A stretch of 64,000 nt of DNA from Bacteroidota bacterium. GTDB lineage: Bacteria > Bacteroidota > Bacteroidia > UKL13-3. A model generated the notes under the pieces. It searched no databases and was not told the origin of the DNA. It was given only the letters and a program-made list of their open reading frames with translations. This document shows, one piece after another, positions 28,715 to 44,825 of this stretch (its first letter is position 1; each line of letters begins with the position of its first letter). The DNA lies in assembly GCA_027484685.1 (NCBI GenBank), contig JAIXSO010000026.1:18406-82405 (forward strand), read 5' to 3'. Made by a program: the position numbers and the translations under genes.

Positions 28715-29243
28715 TCAAGATAAATTAGTTTTTAAAATAGTTACCATTGTTTCAATATTTGTTTTTGTAGCTGTTGTAATTTTAAATCGTAAAATATTAC
28801 CAAGGCCCGAAGTATTGCCAAGTTGGGTAATGTATTTGCCTAAATTAAATGCATTTATTAATGCTACTTGTACAGTTTTGTTATTGCTTTCATTGTATTT
28901 TATTAAACAAAAAAACATTGCTGCACATAAAGCTATTAACTTAACTGCTTTTGGGTTATCGTCTTTATTTTTGGTGAGTTATATTTTGTATCATTGGATG
29001 GCAAACGAAACCACTTTTCCTGAAGATAATTCAATGAGAGGTTTGTATTTAACCATTTTAATCAGTCATATTATTTTAGCTGCATTGGTTTTACCTTTGG
29101 TATTGCTTTCTTTTTATTATGGCTTGCAAATGAATGTAGAAAAACACCGTAAGATTGTACGTTTTACTTATCCAATTTGGTTATATGTAACTACCACAGG
29201 CGTTATAGTATATGCTATGATTAGCCCTTATTACAAATTTTAG
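28692..29243 (+). CDS. DUF420 (CtaM-like) membrane protein associated with oxidase assembly
   Basis: 183 aa, 4 TM helices, terminal gene of the cox operon. Overlaps sco1 by 23 bp. Confidence 0.6.
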   Translation: MNTTNQNSQDKLVFKIVTIVSIFVFVAVVILNRKILPRPEVLPSWVMYLPKLNAFINATCTVLLLLSLYFIKQKNIAAHKAINLTAFGLSSLFLVSYILYHWMANETTFPEDNSMRGLYLTILISHIILAALVLPLVLLSFYYGLQMNVEKHRKIVRFTYPIWLYVTTTGVIVYAMISPYYKF

Positions 29244-30160
29244 TGTTAAAAAGTAAAAATTTAAAAGCCTACTTAGCATTTATTGCGGTAGCAATTTTTT
29301 GGGGTACCACATTCTTAGCCATTCGTATAGGCATTAATTCTGATGGTGTACATCATTTTCCTCCATTTTTATTGGCTGCATTTAGGCATTGTATTGCAGG
29401 GCTTTTAATTTGTTCCTACTTTATTCTTTACAAAAAACAGCCTTTACCTACACTTAAGCAATTTAAGTATTTTAGCATCAATGGTATATTGATGTTGGTA
29501 GGTGGTAATGGCATAATAAGTTGGGGAATGCAATACGTGGATAGTGGTTTGGCTGCTATTTTATGTGCACTTACGCCACTTTGGATAGTATTTATAAACC
29601 TGGCAATGGGTAGTAACGAAAAGGTTACCAAGGTAATGTGGGCAGGTTTTATAATTTGTTTACTAGCGCAATACCTTATTTTTTACGATAAAATAAATAT
29701 ACTCTCGGATAAAAATTACATTTATGGTTTAATAGCCATTATAGTTTCAAATATTTGTTGGGCATTTGGAACAGTTTTTTCTAAATCAAGCACTTCTCCT
29801 TTTCCTGCCTTGTATAATGCAGGCTTGCAAATGATTCCTGGAGGAGTTATTCTCTTAATTTTTTCAACTTTAACAGGCGATTGGAACAATTTTAACCCTA
29901 GTAGCAATTCTATTTGGGCTTTGGTTTATTTAATTTTATTTGGTTCTTTATTGGCTTACGGATGTTTTATGTACATAATAAAAGCGTTACCTGCAGCTTT
30001 GGTATCAACTTATGCATATATTAACACCATTGTGGCTGTCATATTAGGCGTGGTGTATTTAAAAGAAGAAATTAATGCCAAAGTAGTAGTGGCTATGTTG
30101 CTAACCATTCTTGGAGTTTACTTAGTTGGCAAAAAAGCTAAAGTAAAAGAAGCGAAATAG
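29243..30160 (+). CDS. EamA/DMT-family transporter
   Basis: 305 aa, 10 TM helices, two EamA repeats. Confidence 0.8.
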   Translation: MLKSKNLKAYLAFIAVAIFWGTTFLAIRIGINSDGVHHFPPFLLAAFRHCIAGLLICSYFILYKKQPLPTLKQFKYFSINGILMLVGGNGIISWGMQYVDSGLAAILCALTPLWIVFINLAMGSNEKVTKVMWAGFIICLLAQYLIFYDKINILSDKNYIYGLIAIIVSNICWAFGTVFSKSSTSPFPALYNAGLQMIPGGVILLIFSTLTGDWNNFNPSSNSIWALVYLILFGSLLAYGCFMYIIKALPAALVSTYAYINTIVAVILGVVYLKEEINAKVVVAMLLTILGVYLVGKKAKVKEAK

Positions 30161-30189
30161 CATTTGATTTTCTGTTTGATTTGATTTGG

Positions 30190-30558
30190 AAGTTTGCCTT
30201 TGGCTTCTAGCTGATTGGATTTTGTACTTGACGGATGCGATTTTGGAGTTTTCTTTTTGCGTTTTGGATTTTGCTGATTGGATTTTGCTTTTTGCTGGTG
30301 GCATTTTGGAGTTTTTTTCTAGCGTTTTGAAGTTTGCTGCTGGCGTTTTGGACTTTTCTTCTGACGTTTTGGAGTTGTCGGGTGCGATTTTACTTTTTGC
30401 TGGTGGCATTTTGGAGTTTTCTTCTAGCGTTTTGAAGTTTGCTGGTGGCGTTTTGGACTTTTCTTCTGGCGTTTTGGAGTTGTCGGGTGCGATTTTGCTT
30501 TTTGCTGGTGGCATTTTGGAGTTTTCTTCTAACGTTTTAAAGTTTGCTGGTGGCGTTT
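30190..30558. repeat. Tandem array of ~105-bp G/T-rich repeats (~3.5 copies) with ~21-bp internal sub-periodicity
   Basis: Direct reading shows 'gcgattttgctttttgctggtggcattttggagttttcttct(a/g)gcgttttgaagtttgctggtggcgttttggacttttcttctggcgttttggagttgtcgggt' repeated. Both strands give low-complexity repetitive ORFs. Confidence 0.8.
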
Positions 30559-30650
30559 AGGAGACTGTCCAAAAAAGTGTGTAAACGGATAAATTTAGAA
30601 CCCTATGCACAAAGCAAAAACATTTCTATTAAAAACAATTAAAATTTAAC

Positions 30651-33600
30651 TTGGTGGTAAATGATGAATTATTAAATTTGAATGTCAAAAATACAAATTC
30701 AATGATTAAATCAATTAAAAGTTTATCAAATCAATATTTCTTAGATTTAAAAAGTAAAAAAGTAAAAACAACCACATTCTTTAGAATATTTCTTTTGTTT
30801 GGTTTATTGTTTAGTTTACAATGTGTAATTGCACAACCCACCATTACTTCTTTTGCCCCATTAAGTGGAAAGGTTGGCGACACCATAACCATTTTAGGTA
30901 ATAGTTTTAATACTACTGCGGCTAACAATATCGTATTTTTTGGTGCAACTCGAGCAACAGTTTCGACAGCAACCTCAACAAGTTTAACGGTAACAGTACC
31001 AATAGGAGCGACCTTTGCACCTATTACTTTATTAAACACAGCCACGGGTTTAGCAACTTATAGTACTCAATTTTTCAACCCAGTATTTAGCCCTAGTAAA
31101 GGAAGTATAACATTGAATGATATTTCGCCAAAGGTTAACTTCACCGTAGGTTGGGCTCCAAAAACAGTATCCATTGGCGATATAGATGGGGATGGTAAAC
31201 CTGATTTGGCAATAGCTAATGAATATGACAATACTATTTCAGTATTACGCAATACTGGCAATAATGGTACTGTTAGTTTTGCACTAAAAGTGGATTTTGC
31301 AACAGGTTCAAATCCTAAAATTGTTGCCATTGGCGATATAAATGGTGACGGTAAACCTGATTTGGTAACAAATAATGTATCAAACAATTCTGTTTCGGTA
31401 TTGCGCAATACTAGCAGCAGTGGTACGATTAGTTTTGCAACAAAAGTAGATTTTACAACAGGTGGCAATCCTCAATCAGTTACCATAGGTGATTTAGATG
31501 GAGATGGTAAACCAGATTTGGCAATAGCTAGTTGGAGCAGCAATACCATTTCTGTATTACGCAATACTGGAAGTAGCGGCACCATTAGTTTTGCAACTAG
31601 GGTAAATTTCACTACAGGTTCAGGTCCTTATTCCTTAACCATTGGCGATATAGATGGTGATGGAAAACCTGATTTGGCAGTTGTTAATAGAGACAACAAT
31701 ACTATTTCTGTATTGCGTAACACTAGCAGCAGTGGTATAATGAACTTTGCCACAAAGGTAGATTTTACAACAGGTTCATCTCCTTATCAATTAGCAATAG
31801 GCGATATAGATGGGGATGGCAAGTTGGATTTAACAACTGCGAATATTGACAGCGATAGCGTTTCTGTATTGCGCAATACTAGCAGCAGCGGTACAGTTAG
31901 TTTTGCAACAAAAGTAGATTTTACAACAGGTACAAATTCAGAACCTTTTGCATTAGCGATAGGCGATATAGATGGAGATGGAAAACCTGATTTGGCAGTT
32001 GCTACCAGTGGATACAATACAATTGCTGTATTACGCAATATTAGTAGTAGTGGTACGGTTAGTTTTGGAGCAAAGGTAGATTTTGGAACAAGCCTATCTC
32101 CTTCTTTTATATCCATTGGCGATATAGATGGGGACAGTAAACCGGATTTGCTAATTACGAATAATGGAATTAATGGCACTGTTTCTGTATTGCGTAATAA
32201 CCCCCAACCTCCTCCTTCACCTCCCACCATCACCTCCTTTGCACCCTCTAGCTGTGCAATAGGTGCTACATTTTCAATAACAGGAACTGGTTTTAATACT
32301 ACACCTGCTAATAATGTGGTATTTTTTGGTGCTACACGTGCTACAGTAATTACAGCATCTGCTACTAGTTTAACTGTAATTGTGCCAATAGGTGCTAACT
32401 TTGCTCCTATTACAGTGTTAAACACGTTAACCGCTTTAGTTGCCTATAGTACTCAATTTTTTAAACCAATATTTAGCCCCACTAAAGGTAGTATTACCTC
32501 TACCGATTTAGCCGCAAAAGTTGATTTTGCAACAAATTCAGCAACTAAATCAGTAGCAGTTGGAGATATAGATGGAGATGGGAAAACTGATTTGGCAATT
32601 GTTAATGGAGGCAACAATACTGTTTCTGTATTACGAAACACTGGAAGCAGTGGTTTAGTTAATTTTGCAACAAAAGTAGATTTTACAACTGGTATAAATC
32701 CATGGTCAGTGGCTATTGGCGATATAGATGGAGATTCAAAACCTGATATGGTAATAGCTAATTATAACAGCAATACTGTTTCAATTCTACGCAATACTGC
32801 TAGTATCGGTGTACTTAGTTTTGCATTAAAAGTAGATTTTACATCAGGCATCCATCCTAAATCAGTAACTATTGGTGATATAGATGGAGATGGTAAACCA
32901 GATTTAGTAATAGCTAATGATAGCAGCAATAGTGTTTCTGTTTTGCGTAATACAGGCAGCAGTGGTTTCATTAATTTTGCACCAAAAGTAGATTTTGCAA
33001 CAGGCTCTTTTCCTAGTTCTGTAGCCATTGGCGATATAGATGGAGATGAAAAGCCTGATTTGGCAATACCTAATGATAGCAGTAATACTGTTTCTGTTTT
33101 GCGAAATATAAGTATCAGTGGTACCGTTAGTTTTGCAATTAAGGTAGATTTTGGAACCGGCACTCAGCCTACTTCTTTAGCTCTAGGCGATATAAATGGG
33201 GATGGGAGGCTTGATTTGGCAATAGCTAATAGAAGCAGCAATACTATATCTGTATTGCGTAATATAAGCACTAGTGGTGTGCTTAGTTTTGCACCAAAAG
33301 TAGATTTTGCAACTGGTTCAAGTCCTCGATTTGTAGCCATTGGCGATATGGATGGAGATGGTAAGTCGGATTTGGCAATAACAAATCAAGGGAGCAATAC
33401 TATTTCAATATTACGTAATACAAGCAATAATGCTACAGTTAGTTTTACAACAAAAGTAGATTTTATAACAAACACACAACCAAATACATTAGCCATTGGC
33501 GATATTGATGGAGATGGTAAACCTGATTTGGCGATAGAAAATGGAGGTAATACTGTTTCTTTATATCGTAATAACCCTCAAATATTTCCACCCAGCATTA

Positions 33601-36600
33601 CATCCTTTGCTCCTTTAAGCGGTACAGTAGGTTCTTCCGTAACTATTATAGGTTCTGGTTTTAACACTACACCTGCCAATAATATTATATTTTTTGGAGC
33701 AACACGTGCAACTGTAACTACCTCAACCACAAATAGTTTAACAGTAACAGTGCCAACAGGTGCCACTTTTGCACCAATAACATTAATAGATACAGGAGTT
33801 AATTTTACTGTACACAGTCCCCAGTTTTTCAATCCAATATTTAGCCCTAGTAAAGCTATTATTACCACTTCAGATATTGCGGCAAAATTAGATTTTTCGA
33901 CCGGTACAAGTCCTCGATCAATAGCCATTGGCGATATTGATGGAGATGGCAAATCTGATTTGGCAATCGCTAATACAAACAGTAAAACTGTTTCAATTTA
34001 TCGTAATACTGGCAAAATTGATACGGTAAATTTTGCAACAAAGGTAGATTTTACTACACTTTGGAGTCCTCTATCGGTTGCTATTGGAGACATAGATGGA
34101 GATGGAAAAGCTGATTTGGTAATTGCAAATGCAGGTAGTGATATTGTTTCTATATTTCGAAATACAAGTAGTAGTGGCATTATTAATTTTGCATCAAAGG
34201 TTGATTTTATTACAGGGTCGCTTCCTTATTCAGTAGTAATTGGAGATATAAATGGAGACGGTAAACCAGATTTGGCATTAACTAATTATAATAGCAATAC
34301 TGTTTCAGTGTTACGCAATACGGGCTTAAAAGGTTCAATAAGTTTTGCCACCAAAGTAGATTTTGCAACAGGATCAAATCCTTGTTCGGTAGCTATTGGA
34401 GATATAGATGGGGATGGTAAACCTGATTTGGCGATTGCTAACACAGGCAATATCTATACTGTTTCTGTATTACGTAATACAGGTAGTAATAATTCGGTTA
34501 ATTTTGCCACAAAGACAGATTTCACTACGGGTTCAAATTCAAAGTCCATAGAAATAGGCGATATAGATGGAGATGGAAAACCCGATTTGGCTATAGGCAG
34601 TAATTCTGTTTCTATTTTACGCAATACGAGTAGTAGTGGTTCGATTAGTTTTGCAACAAGAGTAGATTTTGCATCAGTATCAACTCCTTATTCATTAAAA
34701 ATTGGTGATATAAATGGAGATGGCAAACCTGATTTGGCAATAATTAATCAAAGCAGCAATAAACTTTCTATATTACGTAATACAAGTATCAGTGGTACAG
34801 TAGATTTTGCAACAAAGGTAGATTTTGCCTCAGGTACAAATCCTCTTTCAATAGCCATTGGCGATATTGATGGGGATGGCAAATCTGATTTGGCGATAGC
34901 AAACGAAAACAATAATTCTGTCTCTATTTTAAGAAATTATCCTCAACCACCGCCTCCTACCATTAATTCATTCACTCCAACCAGCGCAGTTGTAGGTGCT
35001 TCAATTTCCATAACTGGTGTAGGTTTTAACACGGTACCTACAAAAAATATAGTGTTTTTTGGTGCAACTAAAGCAATTGTAACAGCAGCAACTGACACCA
35101 GTTTAATGGTATTGGTACCTATAGGTGCCTCTTTTGCACCAATAACTATATTAAATACTGCTAACACTTTATCAGCTTATAGTACACAATTTTTCAACCC
35201 AATATATAGTCCTAGTAAAGGAAGTATAACCACAAATGATATAACAACAAAGCAAGATTTTACAACTGGGCCGCAATCCAGAGCTGTAGCTATTGGAGAT
35301 TTGGATGGTGATGGCAAACCCGATTTGGCTGTAGTTAATAATGTTGGTGCTACTGTTTCCATATTAAGAAATACAGGAAGCATTGGTTCGGTTAGTTTTG
35401 CAACCAAGGTTGATTTTTCTACGGGTACAGATCCTGAGTCAATATCTATTGGAGATATAAACGGAGATGGTAAACCTGATTTAGTTGTGACAAATTTTGG
35501 AAGCAGCACTGTTTCAGTTTTTCGCAATATAAGCATGAATGGAGCAATTAGTTTTGCTACAAAAATCGATTTTGCAACAGGTACAAATCCCAGTTCAGTG
35601 GCCATTGGCGATATTGATAAAGATGGCAAACCAGATTTGATAGTAACTAATTATAATAATGGCTTTAACTCTATTTCTGTCTTTCGTAATACCAGTAACA
35701 GTGGTACAATTAGCTTTGATTTAAAGGTAGATTTTGAAACAGGAGGTAATCCGGCCTCAGTAGCTATTGGCGATATTGATGGAGATAATAAACCCGATTT
35801 AGCAATAGCCAATCAAATGAGCAATACTGTTTCAATACTACGGAATACAAGTATTTATGGAACAGTTAGTTTTGCAACAAAGTTAGATATTACAATGATT
35901 TCTGAGCCTTTTTCAATTGCCATTGCTGACTTAGATGGCGATGGAAAATCTGATTTAGCAATAGCAAATGTTAGCAGTATTGGAAAATCAGTTTCTGTCT
36001 TAAGGAATACCAGTAGCATTGGTTCAGTGAGTTTTGCATCAAGGGTAAATTTTTCGGCAAATGGAGATCCTTATTCAGTATCCGCTGGCGATCTAGATGG
36101 AGATGGAAAGCCTGATTTGGCAATCGCTAGTTTTAGCAGTTCAGTTTCAGTATTGCGAAATACAAGTGTGAGCGGTACTATTAATTTTGCTACTAGGGTT
36201 CCTTTTACAACAGGCTCATTTCCACGATCAGTAGCATTGGGTGATATAGATTGTGACGGCAAACTTGATTTGGTGGCATCTAACAGTAACAGCCAAACTG
36301 TTTCCGTATTGCGTAATAACCCACAATTTCCTCCCACAATTTCCACAATAGGTAATTTAACACCATTTATTTCTTGTACTGGCAGTGCTTCAGCACAGCA
36401 AACATTTACAGTAACTGGAACTAATTTAATAGCAAATTTAATGGTAATACCACCAATAGGCTTTGAGATAAGTACTACTTCTGGTTCAGGTTTTGGAAAC
36501 AGTGTTAGTTTATCTCCTTCCTCAGGCACAATAAACGCAATCTTATATATACGTTTAACCAATTCGGTAACAGGTTCGCCAAGTGGAAATATAGTTTGTG

Positions 36601-37787
36601 CCTCAACAATTGCTGATACACAAAATGTAGCTGTATATGGTTTAGTAAAAGCAACATCAACTAGTACTACAAATATTTCAGTCTGCTCAAGTACATTACC
36701 TTTTACTTGGAATAGTAGAGCATATAATTCAAGTAGAACAGATACTGTTTATTTAACCAATTTCGTTGGTTGTGATAGTATTACCATTTTAAAATTAACA
36801 GTTAAACCTACAAGTTCATCAACTTCTAATATAAGCATTTGCCCTAGTGCATTGCCTTATACTTGGAATGGAAGAACATATAATTCCAATAGCATAGATA
36901 CGGTTTATTTAACCAATTCCGTGGGTTGCGATAGTATTACTATTTTAAAATTAACTGTAAAACCTACAAGTTCATCAACTTCTAATATAAGCATTTGTCC
37001 TTCAGCACTGCCTTATACTTGGAATGGAAGAACATATAATTCCAATAGCATAGATACTGTTTATTTAACTAATTCAGTAGGTTGCGATAGTATTACCATT
37101 TTAAAACTAACAATAAAACCAATTAGTACTTCAACAAATAACATAAGTATTTGTCCGAGCGCATTGCCTTATACATGGAATGGATTAATCTTTAACGAAT
37201 CAGGAACGCAGACCAAAACAGGTTTAACTAATTCGGTTGGATGTGATAGTTCAGCAACTTTAAATTTATCGGTAAATCCAATTCCAGCAACTTCCAATAT
37301 TACAGGCTTTACCAATGTAGCAAGGTTAGATACAGCTACTTATTCGGTAATAGGAACAAGTGGTTCAGTTTTTAATTGGGCAACTACAAAAGGATTGGTT
37401 CAAACAGGCGCGGGTACAAATCAAATAAAAGTAAAATGGAATACAGCCGGAATGGATACTTTAAAAGTTACTGAAACTTCTAATCAAGGTTGTGTTGGTT
37501 CACAAAAAACACTATTGGTTAATATTGGTCCTGCTACCGGAATGAATGAAATCAATGCAAGTAATAATATACTGGTTTATCCAAATCCATTTAACGAAAC
37601 CATATTTATTTCATTGCTTAATAATTCAGGTTTGAACAAAGCTATTTTATATGATTTATTAGGTAAAGAGGTTTTAACTACCCATAAAAGTGAAATAGAT
37701 GTGAAAGAGTTAAAATCTGGCGTTTATTTGATAATGGTGATTGATAATAATGGCAATAGTTATAGCCAAAAATTGATTAAAAATTAG
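30651..37787 (+). CDS. Giant T9SS-secreted protein with 4 x [IPT/TIG domain + 7 FG-GAP repeats] plus C-terminal Cys-containing repeats and a type-A CTD
   Basis: 2378 aa with signal peptide. Twenty-eight 'IGD(I/L)(D/N)GDGKPDL' FG-GAP calcium-binding motifs in four sets of seven. Each set is preceded by 'P(T/S)ITSFAP..G....I.G.GFNTT' IPT-like domains. Four ~57-aa 'ISICPSALPYTWNG...VGCDSITILKLTVKP' repeats. C-terminal 'VYPNPF...GVYLIMVIDNNG' T9SS CTD. Antisense ORFs inside the gene are repeat artefacts. Confidence 0.85.
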   Translation: MVVNDELLNLNVKNTNSMIKSIKSLSNQYFLDLKSKKVKTTTFFRIFLLFGLLFSLQCVIAQPTITSFAPLSGKVGDTITILGNSFNTTAANNIVFFGATRATVSTATSTSLTVTVPIGATFAPITLLNTATGLATYSTQFFNPVFSPSKGSITLNDISPKVNFTVGWAPKTVSIGDIDGDGKPDLAIANEYDNTISVLRNTGNNGTVSFALKVDFATGSNPKIVAIGDINGDGKPDLVTNNVSNNSVSVLRNTSSSGTISFATKVDFTTGGNPQSVTIGDLDGDGKPDLAIASWSSNTISVLRNTGSSGTISFATRVNFTTGSGPYSLTIGDIDGDGKPDLAVVNRDNNTISVLRNTSSSGIMNFATKVDFTTGSSPYQLAIGDIDGDGKLDLTTANIDSDSVSVLRNTSSSGTVSFATKVDFTTGTNSEPFALAIGDIDGDGKPDLAVATSGYNTIAVLRNISSSGTVSFGAKVDFGTSLSPSFISIGDIDGDSKPDLLITNNGINGTVSVLRNNPQPPPSPPTITSFAPSSCAIGATFSITGTGFNTTPANNVVFFGATRATVITASATSLTVIVPIGANFAPITVLNTLTALVAYSTQFFKPIFSPTKGSITSTDLAAKVDFATNSATKSVAVGDIDGDGKTDLAIVNGGNNTVSVLRNTGSSGLVNFATKVDFTTGINPWSVAIGDIDGDSKPDMVIANYNSNTVSILRNTASIGVLSFALKVDFTSGIHPKSVTIGDIDGDGKPDLVIANDSSNSVSVLRNTGSSGFINFAPKVDFATGSFPSSVAIGDIDGDEKPDLAIPNDSSNTVSVLRNISISGTVSFAIKVDFGTGTQPTSLALGDINGDGRLDLAIANRSSNTISVLRNISTSGVLSFAPKVDFATGSSPRFVAIGDMDGDGKSDLAITNQGSNTISILRNTSNNATVSFTTKVDFITNTQPNTLAIGDIDGDGKPDLAIENGGNTVSLYRNNPQIFPPSITSFAPLSGTVGSSVTIIGSGFNTTPANNIIFFGATRATVTTSTTNSLTVTVPTGATFAPITLIDTGVNFTVHSPQFFNPIFSPSKAIITTSDIAAKLDFSTGTSPRSIAIGDIDGDGKSDLAIANTNSKTVSIYRNTGKIDTVNFATKVDFTTLWSPLSVAIGDIDGDGKADLVIANAGSDIVSIFRNTSSSGIINFASKVDFITGSLPYSVVIGDINGDGKPDLALTNYNSNTVSVLRNTGLKGSISFATKVDFATGSNPCSVAIGDIDGDGKPDLAIANTGNIYTVSVLRNTGSNNSVNFATKTDFTTGSNSKSIEIGDIDGDGKPDLAIGSNSVSILRNTSSSGSISFATRVDFASVSTPYSLKIGDINGDGKPDLAIINQSSNKLSILRNTSISGTVDFATKVDFASGTNPLSIAIGDIDGDGKSDLAIANENNNSVSILRNYPQPPPPTINSFTPTSAVVGASISITGVGFNTVPTKNIVFFGATKAIVTAATDTSLMVLVPIGASFAPITILNTANTLSAYSTQFFNPIYSPSKGSITTNDITTKQDFTTGPQSRAVAIGDLDGDGKPDLAVVNNVGATVSILRNTGSIGSVSFATKVDFSTGTDPESISIGDINGDGKPDLVVTNFGSSTVSVFRNISMNGAISFATKIDFATGTNPSSVAIGDIDKDGKPDLIVTNYNNGFNSISVFRNTSNSGTISFDLKVDFETGGNPASVAIGDIDGDNKPDLAIANQMSNTVSILRNTSIYGTVSFATKLDITMISEPFSIAIADLDGDGKSDLAIANVSSIGKSVSVLRNTSSIGSVSFASRVNFSANGDPYSVSAGDLDGDGKPDLAIASFSSSVSVLRNTSVSGTINFATRVPFTTGSFPRSVALGDIDCDGKLDLVASNSNSQTVSVLRNNPQFPPTISTIGNLTPFISCTGSASAQQTFTVTGTNLIANLMVIPPIGFEISTTSGSGFGNSVSLSPSSGTINAILYIRLTNSVTGSPSGNIVCASTIADTQNVAVYGLVKATSTSTTNISVCSSTLPFTWNSRAYNSSRTDTVYLTNFVGCDSITILKLTVKPTSSSTSNISICPSALPYTWNGRTYNSNSIDTVYLTNSVGCDSITILKLTVKPTSSSTSNISICPSALPYTWNGRTYNSNSIDTVYLTNSVGCDSITILKLTIKPISTSTNNISICPSALPYTWNGLIFNESGTQTKTGLTNSVGCDSSATLNLSVNPIPATSNITGFTNVARLDTATYSVIGTSGSVFNWATTKGLVQTGAGTNQIKVKWNTAGMDTLKVTETSNQGCVGSQKTLLVNIGPATGMNEINASNNILVYPNPFNETIFISLLNNSGLNKAILYDLLGKEVLTTHKSEIDVKELKSGVYLIMVIDNNGNSYSQKLIKN
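36640..37260 (+). repeat. Intragenic ~171-bp tandem repeats (4 copies; the two central copies almost identical at nucleotide level)
   Basis: Near-identical DNA blocks at ~36781-36950 and ~36951-37120 encode the Cys-containing 57-aa modules. Confidence 0.75.
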
Positions 37788-37873
37788 GTAATTATGGTGT
37801 AGTTATTTTATGTTCATGGTTGGTGTCCTAGCAATCATTCCAAATCGATTGGTGAGGACACTAGCCGAGGACT

Positions 37874-37969
37874 AAAGAAGAAATTAATGCCAAAGTTGTA
37901 GTAGCTATGCTTTTAACCATTGCCGGAGTTTGGCTAGTTGGGCGTAAAGGAAAAATAGCCAAGCAATAA
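37874..37969 (+). pseudogene. Orphan diverged copy of the 3' end of the EamA transporter gene
   Basis: Translates to 'KEEINAKVVVAMLLTIAGVWLVGRKGKIAKQ*' versus EamA C-terminus 'KEEINAKVVVAMLLTILGVYLVGKKAKVKEAK*'. About 80% nucleotide identity over the first ~70 nt. An upstream in-frame TAG and no start codon. Confidence 0.7.
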
Positions 37970-38021
37970 TTTTACAAAACATTTTTAGTTTAGTTTTGCT
38001 TTAATTTATAAACTTACTACT

Positions 38022-39356
38022 ATGAAAAAAATTTATATTTTGTTCTGTTTTATTTTATTGAACGTTAACGTATTTTCTCAAAATGGATTATATGGTATTG
38101 TAAGAAAAAATTATTATTCAATTGTTAGAAATCCTACAGATACTAATCAAACATTCGAACAATTTGATTCTGCAACAATTCGATTAGGGTTTTTAAATCC
38201 GTCATCAGGACAAGTTAGTAATATAGGCAGCAATTTATACAATCAAACAATTAACCTAACTGGAGCTGCTTTAAACCCTTACGACAGCACGTTTATTTAT
38301 ATTGGAGCAGATAAAATTAATACAATTGATTTAAATACGGGTGTAATTATTAATAGTATTCCTTTGTCAAATCCTATACAAAGTAGTTACTTTGATAACT
38401 TTAGGTTTAATAATTCGGATAGTACCATGTATGGTTTAGCGCGAAGAAGTTATTTGGATCCAATTACTAACACCTTAGTTGGTGAAGTTTACATGGCTAA
38501 AGCAAATACCAATACAGGCGTAATAACGCAAATTTCTCCAAGTTCTGTTGGAAATGGATATGCATTATTGGGCAGTTCAATTGATCCTTATCAAATGGTT
38601 TATTATTATTCAGATGGAACACATATTATTGGATTAGATATTTATACTGGCTTGGTTTACAGTAAGGTGGTAATTAACAATGTGTTTGGAACAACGTTTG
38701 GAAACTTTACTTACAATTGTAATGATAATAAAATATATGGGCTAATTGGAAAGAACTATTTTAGAACTGTAACTGATTCACTTGGTACTTATGAAATACT
38801 GGATTCAAATACACAAACTTTGGGCACTATCAATCCTAATTCTGGAATTGTAACTCAAGTTTCGGCCAATACATTAAGTAAAGTTGGATATACAATAAAT
38901 GGAGGTTCTACAATTGACCCTAATACCAACACTTATTATTTTAATATAGGTACCAAAGTAATTGGTGTATCAATTTTTGATGGAACTATAGTTAGCGATC
39001 CTAGTTTTATTTTTTCTGATGGACAGTATTTTGATTTAATAAGAAACTTACAAAGCTGCTATTCGGCTTATTCATTGAGAAAAAAACCAACAAATGTTGC
39101 CTCTGTTAATTCTCAAAAAAATAATATACAAGTTTATCCTAATCCGTTTAAAAATACGGTAAGTGTAAATGGAGGTAATCAACAAATAGGAACAGTGGAG
39201 ATTTACTCTATATCAGGTAGTTTAATAAAGAAACAAAACATAACTGAAAATGGCCAAGAAATTGAACTTTCAGAATTAAAAAGTGGAATTTATTTTTTAA
39301 AAATAAATACTCCAGAAAACGAAAGTACCTTTATAAAAATTTGCAAATCGGAGTAA
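38022..39356 (+). CDS. T9SS-secreted protein with type-A C-terminal sorting domain
   Basis: Signal peptide. C-terminal 'VYPNPFKNTVSV...GIYFLKINT' CTD. Confidence 0.7.
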   Translation: MKKIYILFCFILLNVNVFSQNGLYGIVRKNYYSIVRNPTDTNQTFEQFDSATIRLGFLNPSSGQVSNIGSNLYNQTINLTGAALNPYDSTFIYIGADKINTIDLNTGVIINSIPLSNPIQSSYFDNFRFNNSDSTMYGLARRSYLDPITNTLVGEVYMAKANTNTGVITQISPSSVGNGYALLGSSIDPYQMVYYYSDGTHIIGLDIYTGLVYSKVVINNVFGTTFGNFTYNCNDNKIYGLIGKNYFRTVTDSLGTYEILDSNTQTLGTINPNSGIVTQVSANTLSKVGYTINGGSTIDPNTNTYYFNIGTKVIGVSIFDGTIVSDPSFIFSDGQYFDLIRNLQSCYSAYSLRKKPTNVASVNSQKNNIQVYPNPFKNTVSVNGGNQQIGTVEIYSISGSLIKKQNITENGQEIELSELKSGIYFLKINTPENESTFIKICKSE

Positions 39357-39388
39357 AACTGATTAATCGTAATAAAACAATCACATTC

Positions 39389-39422
39389 AAATCCCGAAGC
39401 GAAAGCAGAGGGATTTTTTTGT
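39389..39422 (+). terminator. Rho-independent terminator
   Basis: 'aaatccc'...'gggattt' stem followed by a T7 run. Confidence 0.6.
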
Positions 39423-39473
39423 TAATAATTAATTTTAACAAATTAATTCAAACTATTCAATAAAATAATAAGT

Positions 39474-42400
39474 TTGAAATTGTTACAAACAAGCATAATG
39501 AATAAAGAAACCCATATTCAAAATTATTTTAAAACGGTTAAAGCTGCTTCAAATGAACTTTCTAAAAAGGAAGCTTTTAAAGATTTATTGAATAGAATAT
39601 ATGCTAATGAGGAGTCTTATACAAAACTGATTGATAGAATGACCTTAGGTTCTGAAAAAGCCATTTTTAATATTCCAAAAGGTGATAAAAATAAAACAGG
39701 AAGGGCTGATACCAAATACAATCAAGTAATTATTGAATTTGAAAAAGACTTACGTAAAACTGGAGAACATGCCAAAGAACAATTAGCTGAATACTTTTTT
39801 GGAACTTATAAAAGTGGAGGAGATTATAACCTAACCTTAATTGCTACCGATTGCATAACTTGGAAAATATTTGTACCAAGTTTTGAAACCTTTGAAAACA
39901 TAAGCTCAATAAAGCTACGCGAAGTAAAATTGGAAGAGTTAAAAGGTGGAACTTTTGTTTTAAGCGAAAATAATGGCAATGATTTCTTTTATTTTATCGA
40001 CCGTTATTTGTTTAGAACGGAAGCTCAAAAAGCTACTTTAGAATATATTGAACAAGATTTTGGTTTACAATCTGCTGTATTCATCAACTCATTTAAACAA
40101 CTAAAAGAACATTTTAATGATGTAAAAAAATATGGTGAAGTGCAAGTAAGCTTTGAACAATGGCGTAAGTTTTTGTTTATAGCTTATGGTATAGAAGAAT
40201 TACCAGAAAATATATTTTTAGTACATACTTATTTAAGTGTTTTTGCTAAGATGCTTGCCTATACTGTTCTTACTGATGATGATTTTATTGACGACCAAGA
40301 GCTAGAGCAAATTATTAATGGAAGTATTTTTGAAACATTAAATGTAAAAAATTTAACTGACAATGACTTTTTTCATTGGGTAAAATCTGAACGAAGTTTT
40401 AGAGAACTAAAATCTGCTTTTAGGCAAATAGCCCTGGAGTTAAGTAATTATAGTTTTAAAAATGTAGATGAAGATGTTTTGAAAGGGGTGTATCAAAACT
40501 TAATTGATATTGATACTCGTCACGCTTTGGGTGAATACTACACACCCGATTGGCTTTGTGAAATGGTGGTAAGAGAAATGCCAATAAAAACAGATAGTAA
40601 AACATTAGACCCTAGTTGTGGAAGTGGTTCGTTTTTAAGAACAGTTATAGATAAACTTAAAAATGAAAATAAAACAATAACAGCAAATGAATTGGCAAAT
40701 AATGTTTATGGCATAGATATTCATCCATTAAGTGTGCAAATAGCTAAAACTACCTTACTTGTTGCTATTGGAAAAGATTTAATTCGAAAATCGAAAAAAC
40801 CAGTTAGTTTAAACGTATTTTTATCAAATACCATATTGATTCCTGATGGTGTAAAAAACCTATTTGGTGGTGATTTTACCTTAACTATTGATAGAGAAAA
40901 ATATAAACTAAATACCCAAGTTTTAGAAGATGATAAACTATTCGATGAAGCATTAAATGTAGCAGATGCTTTGGCAGAGTTAACCTTGGGTAAAAAGGCT
41001 GTTGACCAAACTACTTTTATTAATAATTTAAAGAAAAGTTATCCTTATGCACCTATTCCTGTATTAAACGATAGCTTGTATAAAATATATTTAGGTTTGA
41101 AAAGAACCAAAGAAAGCGGTAGAGATAGTATTTGGAAGTTTATACTTCAAAATATGTACAAGCCATATTTTTTAAAAGAAAGATTCGATTTTATAGTGGG
41201 TAATCCGCCTTGGTTTACTTGGAGTAGCGTTAAAAAAGAGGATTACCAAGATGAACTTAAAACACTTGCAGAAAGCTACTAAGTAATGCCTGAACGCAAA
41301 GCCAATTTTCCACACTTGGAAATCGCAGCCATTTTTTTAGCGCATTGCAGCAATTATTTTTTAAAAGAAAATGGTCAATTAGCATTTGTATTACCAAGAA
41401 GCTTTATGAGTGCTGACCAACATGAAAATACACGAAATGGCAAAGCCAAAGGATTTACCTTAACACAAATTTGGGATTTGGATGCTGTTACTAATTTATT
41501 TAGGGTGCCTAGTTGTGTTTTATTTTCCGAAAAGAAATTAAAAACTTCAGTAAGCCAATACCACAAAGGTATAAATGGAATAAGCTTTAAGGGGCGAATA
41601 AAAAAACATAATTGTAGTATAAAGGAAGTAGAAGATGCTGGAGTATTAACTCAAACCGAAAATACATTTTACTATACTACATTGGGAAAAAGCAGTGCTT
41701 TTAGTGTTTCTAAGCAATCAAAAAAAGGAAGTCAAAATAAAACGAGTTATTACAAAACTTCGTTTAAACAGGGAGCTACATTAGTGCCTCGAAATTTTTA
41801 TTTTGTAGAGCTAACACAAGAAGAGCCCGAAGATTGGGACGATAGGTTGATAAATATAAAAACCAGTTCTGAAAGCATGAAACAAGCCAAAAAACCTTGG
41901 AATGAAATAGACATGCACGGACAAATAGATAGCCAATATTTTTTTAGAACAGCTATTTCTAAAAATGTTTTGCCTTTTGTTTTGTATAATCCCGAATTGG
42001 TAATACTTCCTATAAAAATAAACCAAGAAAATAAACAAATAACCATGCAAACGCATGAGGAAATTTTGAAGGACGGTTACTATATCACAGCGCAATGGTT
42101 TAAGAATGTAGAAAATGTTTGGAATATTCTTAAAACTGAAAAAAATGAAAAAATTTCAAGCGGAAATTATTTGAATTGGCAAAACAAATTAACCGATCAA
42201 GATTTAAATAAAAAGTACATGGTACTTTATACTGCAAGTGCAAAAAATGCAAATAGCTGTGTGGTAAAACGGGAAGATTTAAAATTGGAATTTATAGTAG
42301 AAAGTACAACTTATGTATTTTTTTCAAACAATAAAAATGAAGCTTATTATGTTTCTGCTTTACTAAATTCAAGTGTTCCAAATGAATTAATGAAAGACTT

Positions 42401-42671
42401 TCAAGCAAAGGGATTATTTGGAGAACGCCATGTACATAAAAAAATATTAGACATTCCTTTTCCACAATTTAACGAAATGAATCAAGCTCATATTGATTTG
42501 GCTTTACTATCAGAAAGCTGCCATACCAAAGCTGCCAAATGGATGAGAGAAAACAATATTCCTGATAATTTAGACCCAATAAAACTAGGCAAAGTTAGGG
42601 TTCAAATAAAAGCTTATTTGAATGAGGAGATGAAAAAGATAGATAAGTTGGTGAAGGGGGTGATAAAATGA
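39474..42671 (+). pseudogene. MmeI-like single-chain (type IIG/IIL-like) N6-adenine DNA methyltransferase/RM gene interrupted by one in-frame TAA (41280-41282)
   Basis: ORFs 39474-41282 and 41286-42671 share a frame. Motif I 'LDPSCGSGSFL', 'GEYYTP', motif IV 'GNPPWF' lie before the stop. Conserved post-catalytic 'LAFVLP' plus ~350 aa TRD-sized tail lie after it. N-terminal 'D...IIEFEKDL' segment is reminiscent of a PD-(D/E)xK nuclease head. Confidence 0.7.
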
Positions 42672-42678
42672 TAGGTTA

Positions 42679-43830
42679 ATGTTTAAAGTTTTACATTGGA
42701 AAAAAATTATTTTTAATATTATTCGAGTTGTCATCATGAAAAAAGAATCATTGTTTTATAACCCAACATTTAGTGTTTTTATCCAAGCTTTTATTGTAGT
42801 TTGTTTAGGTTTATGCACTATTCCAATAATTGGTTTTGTATTTTCTTCAATATTTAAAATAGCTCCAAATAATTTAGGAGATACAATAGGAGGAACAATG
42901 GGGCCATTCGTTGCTTTATTTGCTGCCTTGTTAACTTTCTTGGCTTTTTATGTTCAATATCAAGCAAATCAGTCGCAGAGGAACGACATAAAAAGAGAAA
43001 GATTTGAAACACAATATTATGAAATAATTAAATTGCACAGAGAAAATGTTTCGGAAATAAAAATAAGAAGTGATAATGGTTCTATTGAAAGTAGATATGC
43101 ATTTGTAACAATGTTCAATGAATTTAAATTTATTTATCGTTTTTGTTATGACACGTATTTTAGAATGGTGGAAAGAGGAAAAATTGAGATATTAGATAAT
43201 GAAGAGTTGATTGTTAAAGAAAAAATTCTCAATATGTCTTACATTCTATTTTTTATAGGTGTAGGTCCAAATTCATTTGATTTAAGTTTTGCTTCTGCTT
43301 CTGAAAAATCTAAAAAATTACACAAAGAATGTTATGAAGAATTAGAAAAATTGAAGTTAAAACATGTTGATAATAACTATTTTTCAAAATTTAATTTTGA
43401 AAAATTAGGAATAGAAATGGTACTTCAATTAAAATACAAACCTTTTGGAGGGCATATGTCGAGATTAGGACATTACTACAGGAATTTATATATGGCAATA
43501 AAATATGTAGATTCACAAGACTTTTTAAGTGAAAATGAAAAATATAGTTACATTAAAATAATTAGGGCTCAATTGTCAAATCATGAACAAGCCCTAATAT
43601 ACTACAACGTAATTTCTGGTTTTGGTTGGCGTTGGATAGAAAAAGAGAAAAACTATTTAGTAAAATATCGACTCATTCATAATGTACCTACAACATTATT
43701 AGAATTTGCAATTAAACCAAGAGACCATAAAATAATTGGTGAACAAATAAAAGAGTGGGAAGAAGTCAAGAATAAAAATCACAAAGAAGACTTAAATGGA
43801 TGGACACCTTTTTTTGAATGGGAAGAATAA
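42679..43830 (+). CDS. Two-TM membrane-anchored protein, possible abortive-infection-like protein
   Basis: Two N-terminal TM helices then a ~290-aa cytoplasmic domain. Architecture resembles the 'putative phage abortive infection protein' family. Likely true start at 42736 (MKKESL). Confidence 0.4.
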   Translation: MFKVLHWKKIIFNIIRVVIMKKESLFYNPTFSVFIQAFIVVCLGLCTIPIIGFVFSSIFKIAPNNLGDTIGGTMGPFVALFAALLTFLAFYVQYQANQSQRNDIKRERFETQYYEIIKLHRENVSEIKIRSDNGSIESRYAFVTMFNEFKFIYRFCYDTYFRMVERGKIEILDNEELIVKEKILNMSYILFFIGVGPNSFDLSFASASEKSKKLHKECYEELEKLKLKHVDNNYFSKFNFEKLGIEMVLQLKYKPFGGHMSRLGHYYRNLYMAIKYVDSQDFLSENEKYSYIKIIRAQLSNHEQALIYYNVISGFGWRWIEKEKNYLVKYRLIHNVPTTLLEFAIKPRDHKIIGEQIKEWEEVKNKNHKEDLNGWTPFFEWEE

Positions 43831-43842
43831 AAAAATTATAAA

Positions 43843-44802
43843 ATGGAAAAGAAATATTCAGTCTTTGTAAGTTCAACTTATGAAGATTTAAAAGAACATA
43901 GAGAAAAAGTAATATATAGTTTAGTTGAAAATAATTATTTTCCTGTTGCTATGGAATTTTTCCAAGCTTCAAGCGATAATAAATGGGAGCGAATAAAAAA
44001 GTTAATTAAAGATTGTGATTATTTTATTTTGATAGCTGGCGGTAGGTATGGAGAAATTCAATACGATGATAAAAGTTTTATTGAGTTGGAGTATGATTTT
44101 GCATTAGAAAATAATATTCCTGTAAATGTTTTTGTTGTAAATTCAATTGACGAACTTAGAAGTAAAGATGTTGATCATGGAGAAAAAAGAGAAAGTTTAA
44201 ATAGGTTTATCAGGAAAATTCAGGATGATAAAATATCAAAATCATACAAAAATGTTGATGATTTAAAAGCTGTAGTAGTTAATTCATTAAATCGATTAAT
44301 TATAGATAGTCCAAGAGTTGGTTGGATAAGGGGTACTACCTATAAAATTAAAGAAACTTTAAATGAGAGAATTGATTTCGAAATAGACATTACTGAAATT
44401 ACCAAATGGATAAATACTGAAAATATTACAATAGAATATAACCCAATTGGTAAAGATTATTCCATATTTTCTTTTGAAAATTTTTCTTCCGAATCTCTTG
44501 CTTTAAGTGTAAAAGAAGTTTGGGATATACTTCGATTAAAATGTTTGCAAGAACTTCCTGAAACGGAAATAGGAAAGAGTTTAAATTTGCTCATCGACAG
44601 AAAAATAAAGGTTAGTATAAAAGATAAATTTTCATTTAATGACACCAATATTTTTAAAGATTCATTTGATAATGTAATAAGAGTTTTTGTTGATAGAGGT
44701 TTAATTGAACCTTCTTTAAAAAGTAAATTAAGTATTAAAAATCAAAAAGATTGCTATTGGAAGTTATCTTCATTGGGAGAAGTTATCAATAGTGGAAAGT
44801 AA
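43843..44802 (+). CDS. DUF4062 domain protein with uncharacterised C-terminal domain
   Basis: N-terminus 'YSVFVSSTYEDLKEHREKV...FPVAMEFF...DCDYFILIAGGRYGEI...ELEYDFA' matches the DUF4062 consensus. Confidence 0.7.
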   Translation: MEKKYSVFVSSTYEDLKEHREKVIYSLVENNYFPVAMEFFQASSDNKWERIKKLIKDCDYFILIAGGRYGEIQYDDKSFIELEYDFALENNIPVNVFVVNSIDELRSKDVDHGEKRESLNRFIRKIQDDKISKSYKNVDDLKAVVVNSLNRLIIDSPRVGWIRGTTYKIKETLNERIDFEIDITEITKWINTENITIEYNPIGKDYSIFSFENFSSESLALSVKEVWDILRLKCLQELPETEIGKSLNLLIDRKIKVSIKDKFSFNDTNIFKDSFDNVIRVFVDRGLIEPSLKSKLSIKNQKDCYWKLSSLGEVINSGK

Positions 44803-44825
44803 AAATAACTTTAATAATTATTTTT

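What the first reader, a model, noticed from the sequence alone, without database searches (positions are those of the whole stretch)
30063..37969. ~7.7-kb segment bracketed by a diverged direct repeat of the EamA gene 3' end
The last ~95 nt of the EamA gene (30063-30160) reappear at 37874-37969 with matching reading frame, about 80% identity in the first ~70 nt and a more diverged tail. The sequence between them holds a tandem-repeat array and the giant T9SS gene. This looks like an old integration at the 3' end of EamA that regenerated the gene terminus, as tRNA-targeting islands do. It could alternatively be a remnant of a lost EamA paralogue.
Basis: seen in the sequence. Interest (0 to 1): 0.6.

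Follow-up and report, generated by a model that had tools for sequence, protein, structure and literature searches.

The report
Orphan EamA tail marks cassette insertion
A 7.8-kb block carrying a giant secreted surface-protein gene was added just behind a transporter gene in a freshwater Bacteroidota genome, bringing its own copy of the transporter's last 32 codons and leaving the old ones stranded downstream; this is a clean scar of gene-cassette turnover at an integrase-free hot spot, which is a known kind of event.

Summary
The repeat is real. EamA's last 99 nt (30062-30160) recur in frame at 37874-37969: 23 nt identical, 84% over 68 nt, BLAST E 3e-15.

Three relatives (L002, L003, L022) carry the predicted empty site, with EamA running straight into the homologue of the 38022 gene. 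Their EamA ends match the orphan copy ("B" tail), not the end now completing the window's gene ("A" tail).

A related giant gene in another metagenome (L046) loses homology to the window at 37875, which fixes the cargo's right edge at the orphan's first base.

The insert holds an A tail, a non-coding 21-nt array, one 2,361-2,378-aa T9SS protein gene and a terminator-like hairpin. It has no integrase, transposase, tRNA or inverted repeats.

Close relatives show at least 10 different contents directly 3' of EamA, including none. A and B tails occur on otherwise identical EamA proteins, and no relative has a second EamA or another orphan tail.

The most likely history is cassette gain at a recombination hot spot: homologous pairing in EamA on the left and an illegitimate 2-3-nt-microhomology join on the right. 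The analogy to tRNA-type site-specific integration, and the description "old", are not supported.

The parts
29243..30160 (+). EamA/DMT-family transporter gene (305 aa). It is the last gene of a conserved cytochrome-oxidase/SCO1/DUF420 block and the left border of a hypervariable region.
   Evidence: Pfam EamA 9.8e-41. Nearest NCBIfam model is YedA, below its cut-off. Upstream synteny is kept in L001-L012 and L049-L056.
30062..30160 (+). Repeat copy 1: the last 32 codons plus stop of the intact EamA gene.
30062..30084 (+). 23-nt stretch identical in both copies (AAAGAAGAAATTAATGCCAAAGT). It is the only perfect homology between them.
   Evidence: 2 matches against 0.01 expected.
30098..30165 (+). 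'A'-type allele-specific EamA tail (...LGVYLVGKKAKVKEAK*) plus 5 nt after the stop. The same allele occurs in L001, L004, L023, L049 and L050 with other cargos. Homology to L004/L023 ends at 30165.
   Evidence: Sliding identity drops from about 0.9 to 0.4-0.67 between A and B alleles from gene nt 856 = window 30098.
30166..30564 (.). G/T-rich tandem array: 19 units of 21 nt in perfect register. The last 15 units form three 105-nt higher-order copies (91% matches). It is probably non-coding, its function is unknown, and it is unique to this strain among all loci fetched.
   Evidence: D6. Open frames exist on both strands, but substitutions are not biased to codon position 3 (5 of 14). No Pfam hit, no Rfam hit, no homologue in any locus.
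30651..37787 (+). Giant T9SS cargo gene. The ORF has 2,378 codons and the likely start is ATG 30702 (2,361 aa), just before a signal-peptide-like stretch. It has four modules of IPT/TIG plus 6-7 FG-GAP blades, three to four 52-aa 'GCDS' repeats, and a type-A T9SS sorting domain.
   Evidence: Pfam, NCBIfam TIGR04183, translation. A TAAATTTG box matching the Bacteroidetes -7 motif lies just upstream, at about 30675-30682 (read from the sequence; inference).
37807..37876 (+). Strong hairpin forming the 3' flank of the giant gene. It contains a short motif (TTGGTGAGGACACnnnCCGAGGAC) that also follows the stop codons of unrelated genes in relatives, so it is probably a terminator-like element. The cargo ends here.
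   Evidence: Fold -33.9 kcal/mol, z = -5.4. Motif also at L006 1153-1176, L005 14907-14930(-) and L046 4359-4382.
37873..37876 (+). Right junction. Cargo ...CCGAGGACT(AA) joins orphan AAAGAAG.... Homology to the L046 cargo flank ends at 37875 and homology to the empty-site alleles begins at 37874. TAA/AA is shared by the cargo flank and by EamA upstream of 30062, giving 2-3 nt of microhomology.
37874..37969 (+). Repeat copy 2: orphan 'B'-type EamA 3' end (31 codons plus stop). It has no start codon or promoter of its own and is still contiguous with its ancestral neighbour.
   Evidence: 89.7% aa identity to the EamA ends of L002, L003 and L022 over 29 residues. Collinear with them from 37874 to 39424. 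pN/pS about 0.12 against intact B tails.
38022..39356 (+). 444-aa T9SS cargo protein. In the empty-site genomes it is the gene that directly follows EamA.
   Evidence: Por_Secre_tail 2.4e-14. 85% aa identity to L002, L003 and L022.
39474..46573 (+). Context: the rest of the variable region. It holds a type IIG restriction-modification enzyme in two ORFs, an AbiC-like protein, DUF4062 and others, shared in part (up to 99%) only with L022.
   Evidence: PADLOC, Pfam, synteny.

Best explanation
The stretch directly 3' of EamA is an integrase-free hot spot where gene cassettes are gained, lost and swapped within a freshwater Bacteroidota population.

In the window's lineage the resident arrangement was EamA with a B-type 3' end, followed directly by the 444-aa T9SS gene. 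DNA from a closely related strain then came in. It carried an A-type EamA 3' end, the 21-nt array, and a complete giant T9SS surface-protein transcription unit ending at its terminator hairpin.

The incoming DNA paired homologously with the resident EamA on the left. On the right it was joined illegitimately, at 2-3 nt of microhomology (TAA), to a point 99 nt before the resident stop codon. This could be homology-facilitated illegitimate recombination, or equivalently a single Campbell-type crossover of a circularised fragment.

The result is that EamA is completed by the imported tail, and the resident tail survives as a non-expressed 96-nt orphan attached to its old neighbour.

Shown: the duplication, the empty sites, both cargo edges, the absence of mobility genes, the hot-spot behaviour and the allelic tails. 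Inferred: the direction of the event (cargo came in) and the recombination pathway. The two 84%-similar direct repeats could in principle delete the cassette again by homologous recombination; this is inference only.
For: (1) Empty-site alleles exist. In L002, L003 and L022, window 29243-30108 and window 37874-39424 align to overlapping parts of one continuous sequence.
(2) The orphan is of the same tail allele as those genomes. It is 89.7% aa identical to them, against 81-87% to A-tail genomes.
(3) The right cargo edge is exact. The L046 orthologue of the giant gene (86% nt) is homologous up to 37875 and unrelated beyond.
(4) No recombinase was found. The insert holds one gene plus an array, and Pfam shows no integrase or transposase among the 37 window ORFs tested or in the larger cargo ORFs of L001, L002, L004, L005, L007 and L012 and the called genes of L049-L056. 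The nearest tRNA is 18 kb away.
(5) Hot-spot behaviour. At least 10 different contents follow EamA in relatives with at least 71% aa EamA identity. These include zero-cargo alleles: L051/L053/L054 run into DUF4403 after 28 nt, and L008 runs into ParB.
(6) A and B tails sit on otherwise identical proteins (P0121 vs P0251). They also co-occur in one MAG as an assembly fork inside EamA, with 125-nt identical overlaps among L013, L022 and L023.
(7) The duplicated core is not extra-conserved. Identity to L002 is 0.80 at 30053-30082 against about 0.90 for the gene body. Divergence is mostly synonymous and rises toward the border, as reported for replacement flexible islands exchanged by homologous recombination (PMC4033161).
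(8) GC3 of the giant gene is 0.196, within the host range, so the donor was probably a related lineage.
Against: No donor configuration (EamA-A tail, array, giant gene, followed by something other than the orphan) was found. The giant gene occurs next to EamA only in this strain. The only close orthologue, L046, is a 4.5-kb contig that stops before its left flank.

The tail duplication is unique among the sampled relatives, so recurrence cannot be assessed. Only 10 kb of flank was available per relative.

The structure (a gene 3' end regenerated, the displaced end at the far side, identity starting at a sharp left edge) is also what a site-specific integrase acting in trans would leave.

Both copies share V283, where every relative has I. 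This needs either a donor from the same unsampled sub-lineage or later gene conversion.

Two or three nucleotides of microhomology in a 31%-GC genome is weak evidence on its own.
Confidence: 0.6

Rival explanations
1. Same hot-spot mechanism, opposite direction. The lineage already had EamA (A tail), the array and the giant gene. The incoming piece was the block that begins inside a donor's B-type EamA (codon 274) and continues into the 444-aa T9SS gene and beyond. It was anchored by homology on the right and joined illegitimately behind the giant gene's terminator.
For: The A tail of the window is as close to that of the nearest relative L001 as the gene body is (pS 0.21 vs 0.33), so the A tail could be resident. 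Parts of the downstream defence block are 98.8-99.5% identical to L022 while core genes are about 90% identical. That shows recent exchange on that side. L046 shows a giant-gene orthologue whose hairpin is followed by something else.
Against: The orphan plus the 444-aa gene differ from L002, L003 and L022 at core-like levels (84-87% nt, pS about 0.46-0.50). They are not at the 99% level of the recently exchanged part. The orphan carries the window lineage's own KEEINAK and V283 states. The giant gene and array are absent from every relative's EamA locus, whereas EamA followed by the 444-aa gene is seen three times.
Confidence: 0.17
2. Site-specific integration of a non-autonomous island, mobilised by an integrase encoded elsewhere. 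It would target a core inside the EamA 3' end and carry a replacement terminus, as e14 does in icd and as tRNA-targeting islands do.
For: The anatomy fits: direct repeats bracket the insert, the gene end is regenerated, the displaced end lies at the far side, and there is a 23-nt perfect core, empty sites and a sharp common left edge. In e14 the prophage supplies the icd 3' end and leaves a 163-bp pseudo-icd' (PMC6379469).
Against: No integrase was found in the insert, in the tested window ORFs, or in any alternative cargo at this site. None of the other cargos left a displaced tail within the flanks available. The A tail is shared by unrelated cargos and its allelic boundary (30098) differs from the duplication boundary (30062). 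The putative core varies freely at synonymous sites among relatives. The L046 orthologue carries no EamA-like sequence after its hairpin.
Confidence: 0.12
3. Remnant of a lost second EamA paralogue that once stood between the giant gene and the 444-aa gene, with its 5' 820 nt later deleted.
For: The fragment keeps an intact reading frame and evolved under purifying selection, as a once-functional gene would.
Against: No relative has two EamA genes within 10 kb. In three genomes the B-tailed EamA is the only copy, and it sits in the conserved position after DUF420. The deletion would have had to end within 2 nt of the natural end of the cargo's 3' flank as defined by L046.
Confidence: 0.03
4. 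Assembly chimera of co-occurring A-tail and B-tail strains.
For: Such strain mixtures exist and break assemblies inside EamA (L013, L022 and L023 in one MAG).
Against: There is no shared k-mer between the giant gene's 3' flank and EamA that could mis-join them. Both junctions are reproduced at 100% identity in separately assembled contigs from two runs.
Confidence: 0.03

Closest known systems
Homology-facilitated illegitimate recombination and 'C-terminal displacement' scars (orphan 3' ends at Rhs, CDI and V. cholerae T6SS effector loci; PMC5361080 and the references it cites to de Vries & Wackernagel 2002, Prudhomme et al. 2002, Jackson et al. 2009)
   Same: A conserved 5' part serves as the homologous anchor. 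The incoming module brings a new 3' end plus downstream cargo. The old 3' end is pushed downstream and kept as an orphan. No mobility genes are involved, and many alternative modules occur in the population.
   Different: The gene here is an ordinary DMT/EamA transporter, not a polymorphic toxin, so there is no obvious selection on the tail itself. Only one orphan is present, not a string. The cargo is a giant T9SS surface protein, not an effector-immunity pair. The pathway is inferred, not demonstrated.
Replacement/additive flexible genomic islands of aquatic bacteria (Lopez-Perez et al. 2014, PMC4033161)
   Same: Population-level variation of genes for exposed cell structures and defence lies between conserved flanks. 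Exchange is by homologous recombination in flanking core genes. Divergence at the island border is raised and mostly synonymous.
   Different: Those islands normally leave no duplicated gene fragment. Here an illegitimate join left a datable scar.
e14 / phage 21 integration into icd, and tRNA-targeting genomic islands (PMC6379469, citing Hill et al. 1989)
   Same: The element supplies a replacement 3' end for the target gene. A displaced pseudo-3' end lies at the other side. The copies differ mainly by silent changes, and empty sites exist.
   Different: Those elements encode their own integrase and excisionase and have a defined att core used repeatedly. None of this is found here.

Membership tests
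Site-specific integrative island (e14/icd-type or tRNA-type) | Integrase (tyrosine or serine recombinase) encoded in the element, usually next to one att site | tested here: not met
   The insert contains only the array and the giant FG-GAP/TIG gene. Pfam shows no recombinase there or among the 37 ORFs tested across the window.
Site-specific integrative island (e14/icd-type or tRNA-type) | Direct repeats (attL/attR) bracketing the element, with the target gene's 3' end regenerated | tested here: met
   30062-30160 vs 37874-37969, with a 23-nt perfect core and an intact EamA frame.
Site-specific integrative island (e14/icd-type or tRNA-type) | Unoccupied attB in related genomes | tested here: met
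   L002, L003 and L022.
Site-specific integrative island (e14/icd-type or tRNA-type) | The same core is used repeatedly by related elements and is conserved as a recognition site | tested here: not met
   No other orphan tail occurs in 20+ related loci with other cargos. The core varies at synonymous sites, and identity to L002 is 0.80 there against about 0.90 for the gene body.
Site-specific integrative island (e14/icd-type or tRNA-type) | Excision to a circular form and restoration of attB | not testable with these tools
   This needs read-level data. The predicted excision-product protein is absent from the 15-billion-protein collection, but that is a weak negative.
Homology-facilitated illegitimate recombination / C-terminal displacement scar | Extended homology on one side of the insert | tested here: met
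   EamA and 8+ kb upstream are 76-92% nt / 80-99% aa identical across L001-L012.
Homology-facilitated illegitimate recombination / C-terminal displacement scar | Non-homologous junction with no or few-nt microhomology on the other side | tested here: met
   The cargo flank ends at 37873-37875 by comparison with L046. The orphan starts at 37874 by comparison with L002. Only TAA/AA is shared.
Homology-facilitated illegitimate recombination / C-terminal displacement scar | Displaced resident 3' end retained downstream of the new module | tested here: met
   The orphan B tail is collinear with its ancestral neighbour. pN/pS of about 0.12 shows it was recently functional.
Homology-facilitated illegitimate recombination / C-terminal displacement scar | DNA uptake and RecA-dependent anchor recombination demonstrated | not testable with these tools
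   The organism is an uncultured MAG lineage. The pathway is inferred.
Flexible genomic island / HGT hot spot | Many alternative gene contents between the same conserved flanks in close relatives | tested here: met
   At least 10 configurations occur 3' of EamA. Within the L002/3/4/22/23/51 group the same right flank (DUF4403-IRK-CorA) follows cargos of 0, 1, 3 or about 7 genes.
Decayed paralogue | An intact or decaying second copy at the same position in relatives | tested here: not met
Integron-type cassette (attC hairpin at the cassette 3' end) | IntI integrase or attI, an array of attC sites, and a GTTRRRY core at the boundary | tested here: not met
   No integrase was found. The boundary reads GAGGACT|AAAGAAG. 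The hairpin motif also follows ordinary genes in L005 and L006. No attC covariance model was available, so the hairpin itself was not scored.

The most novel reading that the evidence does not exclude
The EamA 3' end might be the docking point of an undescribed, integrase-free or trans-acting cassette system. In it, each cargo module would travel with its own version of the last ~20-32 EamA codons, and the short conserved stretch (AAAGAAGAAATTAATGCCAAAGT...GCTATG) would serve as the crossover site. The window would then have caught the normally transient intermediate in which the old tail has not yet been deleted. The 21-nt, two-helical-turn array at the cassette's left end could belong to such a system, as a protein-binding or iteron-like array, rather than being inert.
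Probability: 0.08. Interest if true: 0.6.

Novelty: new member of a known kind. Interest (0 to 1): 0.35.

Why it matters
Most turnover at integrase-free hot spots leaves no trace, so its mechanism is usually inferred only from SNP patterns. Here one event left a dated scar with both edges defined to within a few bases, the empty site available, and the alternative tail alleles segregating in the same populations. That makes this locus a usable natural example of how streamlined freshwater Bacteroidota acquire large surface-protein genes without mobile-element machinery. It also yields a directly testable prediction about reversible loss through the 84%-similar direct repeats. It does not reveal a new kind of element.

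Tried and rejected
- Search for the donor. A metagenome-contig scan with the giant protein's C-terminal 489 aa found nothing above 38% identity. A protein search gave one close orthologue only (P0011 on L046, 87%), on a short contig lacking the left flank.
- Recurrence. All EamA tails were searched against the flanks of 20+ related loci, and no second orphan was found.
- Excision product. The exact predicted protein (EamA body plus orphan tail, with V or M start) is not in the 15-billion-protein collection. This is uninformative as a negative.
GC3 is host-like, and I attribute the tetranucleotide deviation to the gene's internal repeats, so there is no signal of foreign origin.
- RNA families. 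Rfam found nothing in 29900-38300 at E<=1 and nothing meaningful in the L046 flank.
- Array as a gene. ORFs exist on both strands (124 and 130 aa), but there is no Pfam hit and no third-position bias of substitutions. I treat it as non-coding.
- Simple promoter/terminator scans around both junctions gave nothing above shuffled expectation.
- Integron attC reading of the terminal hairpin was rejected. There is no integrase, the boundary sequence is wrong, and the motif follows ordinary genes elsewhere.
- The unknown GC-richer sequence following the hairpin in L046 has no match in the window or loci and no coding frame.
- Literature search for EamA as a known island integration site found nothing relevant.

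Full report
**1. The observation**

The repeat exists. EamA occupies 29243-30160 (Pfam EamA 9.8e-41). Its last 99 nt (30062-30160) recur at 37874-37969.
- The repeat finder reports 84 nt at 79% identity with spacing 7812, a multiple of 3.
- blastn gives 68 nt at 83.8%, E 3e-15.
- The first 23 nt are identical. That 23-mer occurs exactly twice in the window at up to 3 mismatches, against 0.01 expected.
- The peptides are KEEINAKVVVAMLLTILGVYLVGKKAKVKEAK* and KEEINAKVVVAMLLTIAGVWLVGRKGKIAKQ*. The first 16 codons are identical in protein through 5 synonymous differences.

The region between the copies holds a 21-nt/105-nt tandem array (30166-30564) and one 2,378-codon ORF (30651-37787). That ORF has 25 FG-GAP repeats, 4 IPT/TIG domains and a type-A T9SS sorting domain.

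Two Logan contigs from different runs reproduce the left junction (28575-30310) and the right junction (37766-41239) at 100% identity. I therefore do not consider this an assembly artefact.

**2. Related genomes: the empty site exists**

A genome-contig scan with EamA returned 36 loci, nearly all from uncultured freshwater Bacteroidota MAGs. In L001-L012 the upstream block is syntenic with the window at 74-99% aa identity. That block comprises the cytochrome oxidase genes, CtaA, UbiA-like, SCO1 and DUF420.

In L002, L003 and L022, EamA is followed about 60 nt later by the homologue of the 38022 gene (85% aa). At the DNA level, window 29243-30108 aligns to L002 10001-10866, and window 37874-39424 aligns to L002 10820-12371. 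The two window segments therefore map to overlapping parts of one continuous sequence. Relative to these genomes the window carries 7,812 extra bases.

The EamA ends of these three genomes are of the orphan's type, which I call the B tail (...AGVWLVGRKGKI..). They are 89.7% aa identical to the orphan. The window's working gene ends in a different allele, the A tail (...LGVYLVGKKAKVK..).

**3. The edges of the extra segment**

A protein search with the C-terminal part of the giant protein found one close orthologue (P0011, 87%). It lies on a 4.5-kb Logan contig, L046. L046 3336-4385 aligns to window 36822-37875 at 86%, and homology then stops. L046 reads ...CCGAGGACTAA|CAAGATTCC.... The window reads ...CCGAGGACT|AAAGAAGAAATT....

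So the cargo's own 3' flank ends within 2 nt of the first base of the orphan. EamA upstream of 30062 reads ...GTATTTA|AAAGAAG, which means only TAA/AA is shared at the join.

The last ~70 nt of the cargo fold into a strong hairpin (-33.9 kcal/mol, z -5.4). It contains a motif that also lies directly after the stop codons of unrelated genes in L006 and L005. The motif is therefore most likely a terminator-like 3' element.

On the left, homology between the window and other A-tail genomes (L004, L023) runs to 30165, 5 nt past the stop. The array starts immediately after that.

**4. What the site is**

The stretch 3' of EamA is hypervariable. Contents seen in relatives:
- Nothing: L051, L053 and L054 reach the convergent DUF4403 gene after 28 nt, and L008 reaches ParB.
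- The 444-aa T9SS gene alone: L002 and L003.
- That gene plus a type IIG restriction enzyme, DUF4062 and others: L022.
- Three genes including a trypsin-like protease: L004 and L023.
- DnaB_C-fragment ORFs and unknowns: L049 and L050.
- A periplasmic-binding protein plus an FAD oxidase: L055 and L056.
- DUF3037 plus a HipA-like kinase: L007 and L010.
- Two large secreted proteins plus a TPR-LuxR regulator: L001.
- MutS2: L012.
- Further variants.

None of these cargos contains an integrase or transposase. None was found among the 37 window ORFs I tested, and the nearest tRNA is at 56.3 kb.

The A and B tails are common alleles. They occur on proteins whose remaining sequence is identical (P0121 vs P0251). 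In one MAG the assembly forks inside EamA into an A-tail path and a B-tail path with different cargos. L013's last 125 nt equal the first 125 nt of both L022 and L023.

Allelic divergence begins at window 30098, which is 36 nt to the right of the duplication's left edge. The B tail is always followed by the 444-aa gene. The A tail is followed by at least three unrelated cargos.

**5. Timing and origin**

Against the intact B tails of L002 and L022 the orphan shows pS 0.46-0.50 and pN 0.059. It has no stop or frameshift. Almost all of its divergence therefore accumulated while it was part of a functional gene, so the displacement is recent relative to the split of these lineages, not old.

Its synonymous divergence is similar to that of the EamA body (pS 0.40 for window vs L002). 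This fits the orphan and the 444-aa gene being resident DNA.

Both copies carry KEEINAK, which is shared only with L001 and P0241. Both also carry V283, where every relative has I. The partner in the exchange therefore belonged to the window's own sub-lineage, or the copies were later partly homogenised by gene conversion.

GC3 of the giant gene is 0.196, against a host range of 0.16-0.29. Its higher GC is at codon position 2, and I attribute its k-mer deviation to its internal repeats.

**6. Mechanism**

The best-supported reading is cassette gain at an integrase-free recombination hot spot. Homologous pairing in EamA occurred on the left, and an illegitimate, microhomology-level join occurred on the right. 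This is homology-facilitated illegitimate recombination, or formally the same product from a single crossover of a circularised fragment.

This pathway has been proposed for loci where a new module with its own 3' end displaces the old 3' end and leaves orphans, namely V. cholerae T6SS and the Rhs 'C-terminal displacement' (PMC5361080). The mostly synonymous divergence rising toward the border matches what is described for flexible islands exchanged by homologous recombination in aquatic bacteria (PMC4033161).

The structural facts are shown. The direction of the event and the pathway are inferred.

The main rivals are as follows.
- The same mechanism in the opposite direction, with the orphan block as the incoming piece.
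- A non-autonomous island moved by an integrase in trans. The anatomy resembles e14 in icd (PMC6379469). Against it: no integrase, no recurrence, and no conserved core.
- A decayed paralogue. No relative has two copies, and the edge coincides with the cargo's natural end.
- An assembly chimera. The junctions were assembled independently.

**7. Function of the parts**

By its domain content, the cargo gene encodes a very large T9SS-exported, presumably cell-surface, beta-propeller/Ig-like repeat protein; this functional reading is inference. This is the kind of exposed structure typical of flexible islands (PMC4033161).

The array is most likely non-coding. Its 21-nt register is perfect, but substitutions show no codon-position bias and neither ORF has any family match. 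Its role is unknown.

The orphan has no start codon or promoter of its own, so I consider it inert.

**8. Verdict**

The analogy to tRNA-type site-specific integration and the word 'old' are not supported.

This is a clear new example of a known kind of event and of moderate interest. It would be useful for population-genomic work on freshwater Bacteroidota.

Noticed in passing
window 30166-30564: A G/T-rich array of 19 x 21-nt units sits in perfect register, with T runs twice per unit. The last 15 units form three 105-nt higher-order copies. Frames are open on both strands but there is no coding signature. It lies between the EamA stop and the giant gene's promoter region and has no counterpart in any fetched locus. 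Function unknown; candidates are curved DNA, a protein-binding array or an iteron-like array.
   Followed up: partly
window 37849-37872; L006 1153-1176; L005 14907-14930 (-); L046 4359-4382: A short dispersed hairpin motif (TTGGTGAGGACACnnnCCGAGGAC) lies directly after the stop codons of unrelated genes in different genomes: the giant gene, cox1 and an AIR-synthase-like gene. The window lacks it at the position equivalent to L006 (24270-24345). It has no Rfam match. It may be a lineage-specific terminator-like or REP-like element.
   Followed up: partly
window 39389-39439; L004 10926-10974; L023 432-468; L006 7068-7125; L049/L050 just after EamA: A second hairpin family (AATCCC-AAGCGAAAGC-GAGGGATTTTTT), a classical terminator shape, follows the 444-aa gene in the window. 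In several relatives it lies directly after EamA, in either orientation.
   Followed up: no
window 39474-42671 vs L022 1917-5111: The type IIG restriction-modification enzyme is encoded as two adjacent ORFs in both genomes. The N-terminal nuclease-methylase part is 99.5% aa identical to L022, but the C-terminal part is only 85% identical. This suggests the target-recognition part was swapped.
   Followed up: no
window 42679-43830: An AbiC-like (PF16872) gene has no counterpart in L022, which is otherwise 98.8-99% identical on both sides (43823-46586). This is another small insertion or replacement inside the defence block. Homology to L022 ends again at 46586, and the window then continues to ClpB instead of DUF4403.
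   Followed up: no
L013, L022, L023 (MAG JAAFJM01): Three contigs of one MAG meet inside EamA with identical 125-nt overlaps and then diverge into an A-tail and a B-tail haplotype with different cargos. This is direct evidence of co-occurring cassette variants in one population.
   Followed up: yes
L051, L053, L054 (EamA P0241): This is a zero-cargo allele. EamA, with a third tail variant ...KKAKEVKY, is followed after 28 nt by the convergent DUF4403 gene. That gene forms the right flank in L002, L003, L004, L022 and L023.
   Followed up: yes
L047 1-17081: An ENA metagenome contig carries three giant FG-GAP/TIG T9SS genes in tandem. The first is apparently broken, since the gene caller called only small minus-strand ORFs across it. 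The gene family is thus expanded in some relatives.
   Followed up: no
L001, L005, L011, L012, L019 record titles: Contigs syntenic with this Bacteroidota locus are deposited under unlikely names (uncultured Bifidobacterium sp., Candidatus Methylacidiphilales, Chitinophaga pinensis). The MAG taxonomy labels are probably wrong.
   Followed up: no
L001 18634-20402; L007, L008, L010: In several relatives the conserved right flank of the hot spot is ParB/ParA. The hot spot may therefore lie near the chromosome partition/origin region in those genomes. ParAB did not turn up in the comparisons made with the 64-kb window.
   Followed up: no
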